From Minisyncoccota bacterium (GTDB lineage: Bacteria > Patescibacteriota > Minisyncoccia > Minisyncoccales > UBA10102), in NCBI GenBank assembly GCA_036397395.1, contig DASWIZ010000038.1:1-31601 (forward strand): DNA of 31,601 nt. The letters are read 5' to 3'. The position numbers and the translations under genes were made by a program. This document shows, in pieces, positions 14,797 through 17,700 of this stretch (position 1 is the first letter of the stretch; the number at the start of each line of letters is the position of its first letter). The notes under the pieces were generated by a model that saw only the letters and a program-made list of their open reading frames with translations, searched no databases and was not told the origin of the DNA.

Positions 14797-17700
14797 ATGG
14801 TACAAATTCCTTTTTTAGGAAAAAAGAGACACATGGAAGAGGAACCCATTTTTGAAAGCAAGCCTATAGATGAAAAAGATATTGTCGCCCCTTCCTCGAT
14901 TAAAGTTTCGCAAGAAAGCATTACGCTGGGAAACCGTCTGGTCAAGTCATTTTTTATTTTTTCGTACCCCAGGTATTTAAGTACGGCATGGTTGGCTTCG
15001 GCTATAAACCTGGACATTTCTATGGACATTTCCATGTTTATGCACCCCATAGAAACCGGGTTTATTTTAAAAAAGCTGCGCCGCCGCGTTACCGAAGTGC
15101 AGTCTGAAATTATGGATGAGGAAGCCAAGGGTTTGGTGCGCAATCCCGAGCTGGAAACCGCGTTCCAGGACATGGAGCGGCTGCGCGACCGCCTGCAAAC
15201 AGCGCAGGAAAAAATGTTTCGGTTTGCTCTGTATATTACCGTGTACGCGGAAAACGTGGAAGAGCTGCGGGAAATTCAGACAACGCTGCGTTCTATTTTT
15301 GAGTCGCGCTTAATGTACATAAAGCCGGCTTTATACCAGCAAAAAGAAGGGTTTCATTCGTGTTTGCCGTACGGTTTAGACATGCTGGGCGTGCACAACA
15401 TGATGAATACGGAACCTTTGTCCGCGGTGTTTCCTTTTGTTTCTTTTGATTTGTCTTCCAACGAAGGGATTATGTACGGCATGAACCGGCATAACAACTC
15501 GTTAATTTTGTTTGACCGGTTTTCCATGGAAAACGCGAACGAAACCATATTTGCCACATCGGGAAGCGGCAAATCTATTGTCGGTTCTGAACCCGTACTT
15601 ATCCGCAAAAATGGAAAAGTTGAACTTGTACAGATTGGAGATCTTATTGAAAACTTGATCGCCGAACGCGGCGCGAGCCAAATTGATGAAGATCTGGAAG
15701 GCGTGCTCGACCCCGGAGTTGAAGTGTATAGCTTCAATAAAAACCTCAAAAATGAATGGTCGCGCGTTACGGTTGCGGCCCGCAAAACAGCGCCAAAAAC
15801 ATTCTATAAGTTTACCGCAAAGAGCGGCCGAGAAATTACCACCACCGGAGACCATAACATGCTGGTATTGCGGAATGGCAAGGTGGTTGCCGCCAAAAGC
15901 ACTGACGTGCAAGAAGGAGAGGCTATCCCGATTCCTCGATCTATCACATCCGAGCAAAATTCCCCTTCGCGAACCCTGAATCTACTCGACCTCCTCGCTG
16001 GCGCCGAGAGAGTTCATGTGCTGGGAGTAGAAACGCTTATCCGCCGTTTCTATGCAAAACTTACAAATACGCAGATCGACCCTCGACTTGATCGTTACCT
16101 TTACAAATATCGAGGCGGAAGAAGAATCTCCTTGTATTACTTCGAAAAAATATTGGGCGTTCTTGGAATTTCTCTTAATGAGCATCTTCTTGAGAATCTT
16201 AAACTCGTTGCGCCAAACGGACATACTAAATGGGCCCTTCCAGCTCTCTTTCCTATTACACCAGAACTCTTTCGGGTTATGGGCTATATTGCTTCGGAGG
16301 GAACTATACGCAAAGACGTGGTCATGATATCGAATGTCGATCAGGAATTTCTTAAAGACTTGGATACTGCTCTTTTGTCTCTCGGAGTTCCGTTTTACTA
16401 TGGAAATCAGGGAATTATTATTGCTTCTCCTCTCTTTGTGAAAATACTTTGGAAGTTGGGCTGTAACGGAAATTCGCAACGAAAACATGTGCCTTCTTTG
16501 GTCTTTGAATCAGATACTCCAAATAAAGCGCACTTCCTTCGCGCTTACTTTGAGGGTGATGGCGGGGTTGACGGAGCCGCTATTACCGCAACATCGAAAT
16601 CCCCGCGGCTTATTTCCGAGTTCTCATATCTCCTTCTTTCTTTCGGAATTATCGGGAGAATTTCCAAAATTAAGAAAGGCGCGACCAATGCGAAAAGCCA
16701 GGAGAAGCGAGAATACTATAAAATCAGTATTTCCGGACAGGAAAACCTGCAAAAGTTTGCGGAATCCATCAACTTTGTCTCTCAAGCAAAAAAAGCAAGC
16801 CTCCAAAATCTTTTAGGGAAAGAGGCGAATACGAACGTCGACGTCATCCCCGGCCTCGCGCCAATCTTCCAGGATATTGATAGACTCTTTGGGTTTCAAT
16901 TACACGGAATCAAAGAAATCTGCGAGTTCAAAAGGGCAGCATTCAACCCATCGCGACAAAAACTTCTTGACGTGATCGCAAAAATTGATGGGCGCGCGCA
17001 GTATTTTAAGGATATGTCTGCTACCTTTCACGCGCTTGGCGAATTGCCCGAGCTCTCCGATATCCTCAAGCTTGGTTCGTCAGATAAAAGGCATAATCGT
17101 GCTCTTTGGCAAGCTCTTGGGCAAAGTTGGCGGACGGCAAAAAACGAGCACCGGCCCCCATTTTCAAACAATGCCTTAAAAATGGTAGAGGTGCTTTACG
17201 GCAAGTCATACAGTTTGGATACAATAAAGCAACAAATTCACACGGGTTTTCGGGAAACGGGCATGGAGATGAAATCGTACCACCCCCATCTGCAGGCCGC
17301 ATTAGTTGCACAACGAGCAGCTAGTACCTCATATCCGTTTATTCAGCAAGCCGCCTATTATGTTTGGAAGCAGTATGAAACTATTTTAGCGAACCAAATT
17401 CCACAAGTCGAAGAGAAATTGGCACAATTAAAAACTTTGGCGTCTTCTGAGTTGTTTTGGGACCCTATTGCAAGAATTGAGAAAATCGAAAACACCTCCG
17501 AAGAATATGTGTACGACCTTACAGTAGATAACGAGGTGTTTCTTGCCGGGCAAGGGGGAATGTTTGTGCATAACTCGTACGCCGTGAAGCTGGAGATTCT
17601 GCGCTATTTAATGTGGGGCGTGGATGTTATCGTGCTCGACCCGGAAAACGAATACAAAACCTTAACGGAAGCTGCCGGCGGAAGTTTTTTTGATATTTCT

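What the first reader, a model, noticed from the sequence alone, without database searches (positions are those of the whole stretch)
15574..17574. 667-aa LAGLIDADG intein splitting the VirB4 Walker A box
The VirB4 ATPase ORF contains a 2-kb insertion between GSGK and SYAVK. The insertion starts with Ser and ends with His-Asn followed by Ser. It has intein blocks A, B, F and G and two LAGLIDADG-like motifs. Removing it in frame restores the canonical P-loop GSGKSY. Inteins in ATPase P-loops are a known theme. An intein in a T4SS VirB4 of a CPR-like organism is notable. It implies the secretion or conjugation ATPase is only active after protein splicing.
Basis: partly seen in the sequence, partly recalled or inferred. 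Interest (0 to 1): 0.65.

Follow-up and report, generated by a model that had tools for sequence, protein, structure and literature searches.

The report
Homing intein in CPR VirB4 P-loop
The secretion-system ATPase gene of this candidate-phyla-radiation bacterium is interrupted, exactly inside its ATP-binding loop, by a textbook self-splicing mobile "protein intron" (intein) with a homing endonuclease; this is real but is an ordinary example of a well-known phenomenon in a lineage where it had not been written up.

Summary
Window 15574..17574 (2001 nt, 667 codons) is an in-frame insertion in the VirB4-like ATPase gene (14797..18711, +), between the Walker A Lys and Ser (ATSGSGK|S). It is a canonical class-1 intein: Ser1, T91-x-x-H94, D648, H666-N667, Ser+1. 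It carries a two-motif LAGLIDADG endonuclease (E242, D329). Support comes from Pfam and NCBIfam hits, a pLDDT 92.5 model and a Foldseek best match to PI-TkoII. In-silico splicing gives one uninterrupted VirB4 match above the curated cutoff. A 98%-identical intein-free allele exists in a metagenome. About 10% of the closest Patescibacteria VirB4 loci carry related inteins (35-55% identity) at the same codon, some with decayed endonucleases. That is the normal homing cycle. VirB4 inteins were already counted in a 2016 survey and P-loops are the classic intein hotspot, so this is a new member of a known kind. Two points are mildly new. A ~200-residue all-helical accessory domain has no Pfam or structural match and is found almost only in these inteins. 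The 2025 survey of the Patescibacteria T4SS does not mention inteins. Splicing and cleavage activity are inferred, not shown.

The parts
14797..18711 (+). VirB4-like (CD1110/MPF-FATA type) T4SS ATPase precursor gene, 1304 aa including the intein; the ORF is open from a GTG at 14671 and the first ATG is at 14797
   Evidence: NF045971 conju_CD1110 scores 335 bits with the intein and 358.7 bits after splicing, against a cutoff of 325.
14797..15573 (+). N-extein (259 aa), ending in the Walker A residues A-T-S-G-S-G-K (15553..15573)
   Evidence: It is 96% identical in protein to the N part of the intein-free allele P0001/L001.
15574..17574 (+). Intein, 667 aa, 2001 nt, in frame
   Evidence: The insertion is exactly 2001 nt relative to L001.
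15574..15948 (+). Hint N-lobe (residues 1-125): block A Ser1 (15574..15576); block B T91-G-D-H94 (15844..15855)
   Evidence: TIGR01445 covers residues 2-98. The family alignment shows S/T at position 1 and an invariant TxxH. Mini-intein structures superpose on this part.
15949..16257 (+). Basic, mostly helical linker or DNA-recognition-like region (residues 126-228, pI 9.75)
   Evidence: AF2 secondary structure. Part of it aligns with PI-PkoII residues 227 onward. Charge. This region is deleted in several relatives (P0128, P0131, P0135, P0149).
16258..16848 (+). Double-motif LAGLIDADG endonuclease core (residues 229-425): motif 1 MGYIASEG with E242 (16297..16299); motif 2 AYFEGDGG with D329 (16558..16560)
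   Evidence: PF14528 E 4e-23, 2 stretches. Foldseek matches to I-DmoI, I-Tsp061I and PI-TkoII. The acidic residues are conserved across the family.
16849..17442 (+). All-alpha accessory domain (residues 426-623, pI 9.4), specific to this intein family. Its first ~50 residues sit where UvrB/HerA-intein relatives have an HTH_3 domain.
17443..17574 (+). Hint C-lobe (residues 624-667): block F YVYDLTVD with D648 (17515..17517); block G H666-N667 (17569..17574)
   Evidence: TIGR01443; alignment; coordinates.
17575..18711 (+). C-extein (378 aa plus stop). The first codon is Ser+1, which is the Walker A Ser (17575..17577). Walker B IFVLDEAW lies at 18178..18201.
   Evidence: It is 99% identical to the C part of the intein-free allele.
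14090..14782 (+). Context: separate TrsD-like gene encoding the VirB4-N-terminal-like domain (230 aa)
   Evidence: NCBIfam weak hits: VirB4_plasma 5.9e-8, CD1110 profile positions 11-102, TrsD 0.0067. In L001 the equivalent gene is called as PF26593 TraC-like. It lies directly upstream of VirB4 in nearly all 80 related loci. TrsD next to VirB4 is described in PMC12102498.
13187..13606 (+). Context: PrgI/VirB3-like T4SS membrane protein
   Evidence: PF12666 weak hit, E 0.0029. Position conserved in related loci.
6655..8790 (+). Context: TrbL/VirB6-like T4SS channel protein
   Evidence: PF04610 E 7e-9.
22726..24066 (+). Context: protein with a T4SS pilin domain
   Evidence: PF18895 E 1.3e-9.

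Best explanation
A canonical class-1 intein carrying a LAGLIDADG homing endonuclease sits in the chromosomal T4SS ATPase gene (VirB4 type) of a Patescibacteria/Parcubacteria bacterium. The closest named relatives are Candidatus Wildermuthbacteria. The intein lies between the Lys and the Ser of Walker A. The following mechanism is inferred from conserved residues and from what is established about inteins. The 1304-aa precursor cannot form a P-loop. Ser1 performs an N-O acyl shift, assisted by T91/H94. Ser+1, which is itself the Walker A Ser, attacks the ester. N667 cyclises, assisted by H666/D648. An O-N shift then yields a 637-aa VirB4 with an intact ATSGSGKS P-loop and releases a 667-aa endonuclease. 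At the DNA level, the endonuclease (E242/D329) is expected to cut intein-free virB4 alleles across the ...GGATCAGGAAAA|TCTTACGCC... junction. Repair from the intein-bearing copy would then spread the element (homing). The population data fit a gain, decay and loss cycle. The basic all-helical accessory domain (residues 426-623) most likely adds DNA contacts for target recognition.
For: Shown:
- The boundaries are exact and in frame.
- HMM hits to the intein N and C splicing regions and to two LAGLIDADG motifs.
- All catalytic positions are present and conserved in 34 relatives.
- The AF2 model has pLDDT 92.5; its best structural matches are PI-TkoII, TliVMA, PI-PfuI and PI-SceI.
- The spliced extein matches the CD1110 VirB4 profile as one stretch above the cutoff, and Walker B is intact.
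- All 120 best extein homologues are intein-free, at 545-636 aa. One of them, P0001, is 98% identical.
- Its contig L001 differs by exactly 2001 nt at this codon.
- Synonymous differences between the two alleles pile up at the junction: 10 in the 27 nt upstream and 7 in the 48 nt downstream. Twelve of 33 junction codons differ against 68 of 600 elsewhere (Fisher p 3e-4). This is what a co-conversion tract would look like.
- Intein GC3 is 0.451, against 0.548 and 0.571 in its own exteins (p 8e-5).
- Eight of about 78 assessable related metagenome loci carry an intein at the same codon, 1572-2001 nt long.
- Relatives include versions that have lost LAGLIDADG motif 1 or the GDG of motif 2 (P0128, P0131, P0135, P0149).
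- Homologous inteins sit after the GK of Walker A in UvrB and in DUF87/HerA-type ATPases.
- The context is a chromosomal Patescibacteria T4SS cluster next to nusA, tig, clpP and rny.
Against: - No splicing or cleavage assay exists, so activity rests on residue conservation.
- The nearest intein relative is only 51-58% identical. The donor is unsampled and recent transfer cannot be dated.
- The junction mismatch cluster was examined post hoc. Other 60-nt windows of the gene also reach 9-10 mismatches.
- Flank comparison with other intein-bearing alleles identified no donor.
- The intein's GC3 differs from its exteins but lies within the range of other genes in the window, 0.34-0.60.
- Across the family, intein and extein identities correlate (Spearman 0.81). 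Much of the history may therefore be vertical, or transfer may occur among close relatives.
- The role of the helical domain is a guess. The link to HTH_3 is weak (probability 51%).
Confidence: 0.88

Rival explanations
1. A domesticated or regulatory intein. Splicing would be conditional (on temperature, pH, ligand or partner) and would act as a post-translational switch setting when the T4SS ATPase becomes active. The endonuclease and helical domains would be retained for a host function rather than for homing.
For: Novikova et al. 2016 argue that the clustering of inteins in P-loops may reflect selective retention. The Patescibacteria T4SS was essential for epibiotic growth in the one strain tested (PMC12102498). 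The intein carries a large, well-folded, conserved extra domain of unknown role.
Against: The distribution is sporadic: about 10% of close loci carry it, and a 98%-identical allele lacks it. Endonuclease decay in relatives is the signature of a selfish homing cycle, not of a fixed regulator. The catalytic nucleophiles are Ser/Ser, so the known Cys-based redox traps do not apply.
Confidence: 0.06
2. A splicing-dead relic. The insertion no longer splices, so this virB4 copy would be a pseudogene-like, inactivated ATPase.
For: No experimental proof of splicing exists. Some relatives show degeneration, such as a truncated C-terminus in P0124 and lost endonuclease motifs.
Against: The 2001 nt are open and in frame. 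All of S1, T91, H94, D648, H666, N667 and S+1 are intact. Both exteins are under clear purifying selection relative to L001, with 80 synonymous against 11 non-synonymous codon differences. The T4SS genes around it are intact.
Confidence: 0.05
3. An assembly or annotation artefact, for example a chimeric contig joining a free-standing endonuclease gene into virB4.
For: The window appears to be metagenome-derived. Its exact intein was not found in the protein database, in the species-representative genomes or in the JGI contigs.
Against: The insertion is codon-exact and in frame, and it has Hint lobes on both sides of the endonuclease. The same architecture at the same codon recurs in many independent contigs from NCBI, JGI and ENA.
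Confidence: 0.01

Closest known systems
P-loop (Walker A) inteins of ATPases: DnaB-b, MCM-a, RFC-a, and those in phage terminase large subunits and UvrB
   Same: The intein is inserted inside GxxxxGK|[ST], with the Walker A Ser/Thr serving as the +1 nucleophile, and carries a LAGLIDADG endonuclease. Database relatives of this very intein sit after the GK of UvrB and of DUF87/HerA-type ATPases. The theme is described in PMC4760082.
   Different: The host protein is a T4SS VirB4-type ATPase of Patescibacteria. The intein is unusually long (667 aa) because of an extra ~200-residue helical domain.
VirB4 (COG3451) inteins catalogued by Novikova et al. 2016 (5 cases, Firmicutes and Proteobacteria)
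   Same: An intein in the T4SS signature ATPase.
   Different: Their insertion sites and sequences could not be checked, because the supplement is not held. This intein found no match in 72,556 plasmid records. It is therefore probably a separate, Patescibacteria-restricted lineage.
PI-TkoII (PI-PkoII, PDB 2cw7), the Thermococcus kodakarensis DNA polymerase intein endonuclease
   Same: It is the best sequence match (E 6e-24) and the best structural match (Foldseek E 1.4e-25, TM 0.70 on the target). Both have a Hint domain, a double LAGLIDADG core and extra DNA-binding regions.
Patescibacteria chromosomal T4SS (MPF-FATA-like), Quinonero-Coronel et al. 2025 (PMC12102498)
   Same: The gene set matches: VirB6/TrbL, PrgI/VirB3, TrsD, VirB4 and pilin. 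The location is chromosomal and no relaxase was seen in the window.
   Different: That survey does not mention inteins at all (0 occurrences). Here VirB4 is interrupted by one.

Membership tests
Canonical (class 1) intein | Hint-fold splicing domain split into N and C lobes around any insert | tested here: met
   PF14890 E 1.1e-19 spans residues 13-667. TIGR01445 and TIGR01443 are above their cutoffs. AF2 model with Foldseek matches to intein structures.
Canonical (class 1) intein | Nucleophile (Cys/Ser/Thr) at intein position 1 | tested here: met
   Ser1 (TCT, 15574..15576). Relatives have Ser, or Thr in two cases.
Canonical (class 1) intein | Block B TxxH | tested here: met
   T91-G-D-H94. 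D93, H94 and N95 are at least 90% conserved.
Canonical (class 1) intein | Block F Asp and block G His-Asn at the C-terminus | tested here: met
   D648, H666 and N667; the motif ...YVYDLTVDNEVFLAG..FVHN is conserved family-wide.
Canonical (class 1) intein | Cys/Ser/Thr as the first C-extein residue | tested here: met
   Ser+1 (TCG, 17575..17577), which is also the Walker A Ser.
Canonical (class 1) intein | In-frame insertion at a conserved site; removal restores a contiguous host protein; intein-free homologues exist | tested here: met
   One-stretch VirB4 match after splicing. All 120 best homologues are intein-free. The 98%-identical allele differs by exactly 2001 nt.
Canonical (class 1) intein | Autocatalytic protein splicing | not testable with these tools
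   This needs expression of the precursor and detection of ligated exteins.
LAGLIDADG homing endonuclease (monomeric, two-motif) | Two LAGLIDADG motifs, each with a catalytic Asp/Glu | tested here: met
   MGYIASE242G and AYFEGD329GG. PF14528 gives two stretches at E 4e-23.
LAGLIDADG homing endonuclease (monomeric, two-motif) | Pseudo-dimeric alpha-beta-beta-alpha-beta-beta-alpha fold | tested here: met
   The AF2 model matches I-DmoI, I-Tsp061I, PI-TkoII and PI-PfuI.
LAGLIDADG homing endonuclease (monomeric, two-motif) | Site-specific cleavage of the intein-free allele, and homing | not testable with these tools
   Only indirect evidence is available: sporadic distribution, an intein-free near-identical allele, and a junction cluster of synonymous changes.
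VirB4-like conjugal-transfer/T4SS ATPase (CD1110 / MPF-FATA type) as host protein | Whole-protein score above the curated cutoff of NF045971 | tested here: met
   358.7 bits against a cutoff of 325 for the spliced sequence; 335 bits with the intein.
VirB4-like conjugal-transfer/T4SS ATPase (CD1110 / MPF-FATA type) as host protein | Walker A and Walker B motifs | tested here: met
   ATSGSGK|S is contiguous only after splicing. IFVLDEAW lies at 18178..18201.
VirB4-like conjugal-transfer/T4SS ATPase (CD1110 / MPF-FATA type) as host protein | Neighbourhood of other T4SS genes | tested here: met
   TrbL/VirB6, PrgI/VirB3, a TrsD-like gene and a T4SS pilin. The order is conserved in about 70 related loci.
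Bacterial intein-like (BIL) / non-splicing Hint domain (considered) | A Hint domain that lacks the canonical C-terminal His-Asn plus +1 nucleophile and a homing endonuclease, and sits in variable rather than conserved host sites | tested here: not met
   This element has HN plus Ser+1 and a LAGLIDADG core, and it sits in the most conserved motif of the host. It is therefore not a BIL.

The most novel reading that the evidence does not exclude
The ~200-residue all-alpha domain (residues 426-623) is confidently folded, has no Pfam or PDB counterpart, and is found almost only in Patescibacteria VirB4 inteins. It could be a new kind of DNA-target-recognition module grafted onto a degenerate HTH. 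Alternatively it could be a sensor that makes splicing conditional, so that assembly of the T4SS (essential for epibiotic growth in the one strain tested) is gated post-translationally.
Probability: 0.08. Interest if true: 0.6.

Novelty: new member of a known kind. Interest (0 to 1): 0.27.

Why it matters
The practical value is in annotation. Patescibacteria VirB4 genes of about 1000-1300 aa are not fusions or errors; they are intein-bearing alleles. Surveys of the T4SS should splice them in silico before building trees.

Biologically, this adds one more ATPase P-loop to the list of intein landing sites. It shows an active gain, decay and loss cycle in ultra-small, genome-reduced bacteria, inside a system reported as essential for epibiotic growth in the one strain tested.

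The intein uses Ser at both splice junctions, so it has no catalytic cysteine. It comes with a natural series of mini-variants, which could interest protein engineers.

None of this changes current understanding of inteins or of the T4SS.

Tried and rejected
- The exact intein was searched for in species-representative genomes. Nothing was found.
- It was searched for in plasmids, with no match. In phages there was one weak hit limited to the LAGLIDADG region.
- The source contig is not in the JGI metagenome set. The best match there is the intein-free L001/L002.
- I tried to identify the donor of the junction flanks by comparing 33 nt upstream and 48 nt downstream across 19 alleles. Synonymous sites are saturated and no donor stands out.
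- GC3 was tried as evidence of foreign origin. It differs from the exteins but not from the window at large, so the evidence is weak.
- Intein and extein identities were compared for incongruence. Overall they correlate (rho 0.81). Exceptions exist: L009 and L013 have exteins at 77-81% identity but inteins at only 40-42%. Horizontal transfer is therefore suggested, not proven.
- The supplement of Novikova 2016, which lists the VirB4 insertion sites, is not held.
- I considered that the upstream 230-aa ORF marks a frameshifted VirB4. This was rejected, because the split is conserved in about 70 loci and corresponds to TrsD.
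Full report
**Observation**

The window has one long ORF on the + strand, 14671..18711. Its first ATG is at 14797, which gives a 1304-aa product.
- The peptide ...NETIFATSGSGK is followed at nt 15574 by SIVGSEPVLIRKNG...
- At nt 17574 the insertion ends ...LAGQGGMFVHN and is followed by SYAVKLEILRYLMWG...

**What the insertion is**

Sequence profiles identify it as an intein.
- Pfam scores it as Intein_splicing (E 1.1e-19, spanning residues 13-667) and LAGLIDADG_3 (E 4.3e-23, two stretches).
- NCBIfam finds the intein N-terminal and C-terminal splicing regions above their cutoffs. 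It also gives partial matches to many intein-containing archaeal proteins, all through the intein part.
- The closest solved protein by sequence is PI-PkoII/PI-TkoII, at E 6e-24.

The predicted structure agrees.
- An AlphaFold2 model built on 34 relatives has mean pLDDT 92.5.
- Foldseek ranks 2cw7 (PI-TkoII) first at E 1.4e-25. TliVMA, PI-PfuI, PI-SceI, mini-inteins and I-DmoI follow.

The family alignment and direct inspection place every catalytic position:
- Ser1
- T91-x-x-H94 (block B)
- E242 in MGYIASEG and D329 in AYFEGDGG (the two LAGLIDADG motifs)
- D648 (block F)
- H666-N667 (block G)
- Ser+1

This is a canonical class-1 intein with an apparently intact endonuclease. It is not a BIL domain.

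**The host protein**

- With the intein left in, NF045971 (VirB4-like conjugal transfer ATPase, CD1110 family) matches in two stretches at 335 bits.
- After in-silico splicing it matches in one stretch, residues 22-566 to profile 183-734. The score is 358.7 bits against a cutoff of 325.
- Walker A (ATSGSGK|S) is interrupted between the Lys and the Ser. Walker B (IFVLDEAW) lies in the C-extein.
- The profile's N-terminal ~180 positions are not in this gene. They are weakly matched by the separate 230-aa gene just upstream, 14090..14782.
- That split is conserved in about 70 related loci. It corresponds to the TrsD component described for the Patescibacteria T4SS (PMC12102498). It is not a frameshift.

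**Genomic context and organism**

- The neighbours include TrbL/VirB6, PrgI/VirB3 and a T4SS pilin.
- Housekeeping genes follow: nusA, tig, clpP, rny and two tRNAs. The cluster is therefore chromosomal.
- The closest named extein homologues, at 84-85% identity, are from Candidatus Wildermuthbacteria, in the Parcubacteria/Patescibacteria group.

**Population evidence**

- The spliced extein finds thousands of homologues. The best 120 are all intein-free, at 545-636 aa.
- The best of them, P0001, is 98% identical. Its contig L001 aligns to the window on both sides of the insertion at 92-96% nucleotide identity. It lacks exactly the 2001 nt.
- The protein across the junction is identical in the two alleles, but synonymous differences pile up there. 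There are 10 in the 27 nt upstream and 7 in the 48 nt downstream.
- By codon, 12 of 33 junction codons differ against 68 of 600 elsewhere (Fisher p 3e-4).
- This pattern is expected from co-conversion of flanks during homing, or from conversion to the intein-free state.
- The test is post hoc, and no donor could be identified.
- Intein GC3 is 0.451, lower than the 0.548 and 0.571 of its exteins (p 8e-5). It still falls within the range of other genes in the window.

**Relatives of the intein**

- The intein finds 43 relatives. About 30 are Patescibacteria VirB4-type proteins at 34-58% identity. They come from Taylor-, Harrison-, Portnoy-, Uhr-, Andersen-, Yanofsky- and Pacebacteria.
- In every full-length case the intein lies after the Walker A GK and is followed by S[YF]..K.
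- Several have lost the linker and LAGLIDADG motif 1, or the GDG of motif 2 (P0128, P0131, P0135, P0149).
- More distant relatives sit after the Walker A GK of UvrB and of DUF87/HerA-type ATPases.
- Among the 80 closest metagenomic loci, 8 of about 78 assessable carry an intein at this codon, 1572-2001 nt long. The rest do not.
- Intein and extein identities correlate overall (rho 0.81). There are local exceptions: L009 and L013 have closer exteins but more distant inteins.
- Together this is the standard picture of invasion, endonuclease decay and loss, with occasional hops between P-loops.

**The one unusual feature**

At 667 aa the intein is long, and the excess is a basic all-helical domain, residues 426-623, between the endonuclease and the C-terminal Hint lobe.
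- It folds confidently on its own, with pLDDT 96.
- It has no Pfam match.
- An exhaustive HMMER scan of 1.84 billion representative proteins finds only 14 matching clusters.
  - Ten are fragments or full copies of these inteins. Pfam scans of eight and the precomputed domains of P0134 show LAGLIDADG/intein or VirB4 domains in nine; P0175 shows a LAGLIDADG domain only.
  - One (P0174) is a spurious HEAT-repeat hit.
  - Three short fragments were not scanned.
- Shorter relatives lack its central ~100 residues.
- In the UvrB/HerA relatives the same position holds an HTH_3 domain. The first ~25 alignable columns match it weakly (hhalign E 1.5e-4, probability 51%).
- My inference is that it is an accessory DNA-binding module. 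This is a guess.

**Comparison with what is known**

- Novikova et al. 2016 (PMC4760082) list 5 VirB4 (COG3451) inteins in Firmicutes and Proteobacteria. They describe P-loop insertion as recurrent in DnaB, MCM, RFC and many other ATPases.
- Their supplement is not held, so those insertion sites could not be compared.
- This intein has no match in 72,556 plasmid records. It has only a weak LAGLIDADG-region hit in phages.
- Full-text searches for intein with CPR or Patescibacteria returned nothing on VirB4.
- The 2025 Patescibacteria T4SS survey does not mention inteins.

**Verdict**

The finding is a new member of a known kind, in a host lineage where it has not been written up. It carries a lineage-specific accessory domain of unknown role. 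Splicing, cleavage and homing are inferred from conserved residues and population patterns; none has been demonstrated.

Noticed in passing
window 13652..14059 (+); L001 5321..5734; L042/L044 ~3131..3472: A small PD-(D/E)XK nuclease gene (PF13366 PDDEXK_3, E 8e-31) sits between prgI and trsD in the window. In the otherwise 88-96% identical contig L001, a different PDDEXK_3 gene (35% identity) sits one slot downstream, between trsD and virB4. Only 2 other loci of 80 have one. It looks like a sporadically inserted, possibly selfish, free-standing nuclease gene that targets intergenic slots of the T4SS operon.
   Followed up: partly
window 18715..20166 (+): About 1.9 kb lies between virB4 and the next conserved gene (ORF301, 20218..21123). 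It holds a DUF3800 gene (18715..19278) and a 209-aa ORF with no Pfam hit (19540..20169). Both have low GC3 (0.34-0.35). The segment is absent from L001, and neither gene gave a hit in any of the 80 related loci. A second DUF3800 gene lies at 286..918 (-). This is probably another accessory insertion.
   Followed up: partly
window 14090..14782 (+): The VirB4 N-terminal-like domain is encoded by a separate gene, a TrsD homologue, that ends 15 nt before the virB4 ATG. This arrangement is conserved across about 70 related loci, so the split is ancestral in this lineage and not a frameshift.
   Followed up: yes
window 968..4084 (+): A 1038-aa ORF has a glycine-rich ALK/LTK-type domain and a PKD domain. 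It lies in a region of markedly higher GC (0.59-0.62, against about 0.45 elsewhere in the window). It may be a large surface or secreted protein of different compositional origin.
   Followed up: no
window 21522..21914 (+): A PIN-domain gene (E 1.6e-15) with low GC3 (0.385) lies inside the T4SS region, between ORF301 and the pilin-domain gene. It may be a toxin-antitoxin remnant. No partner was examined.
   Followed up: no
P0125, P0132 (relatives): Two related VirB4 inteins begin with Thr instead of Ser (GSGK|TVHG..., GSGK|TIRW...). Thr1 is a rare N-terminal nucleophile for inteins.
   Followed up: no
L015: One related intein-free virB4 locus shows a -1 offset between its N- and C-extein matches, and its N-extein match stops about 39 residues before the junction. 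This may be a frameshift or a sequencing error near the P-loop.
   Followed up: no
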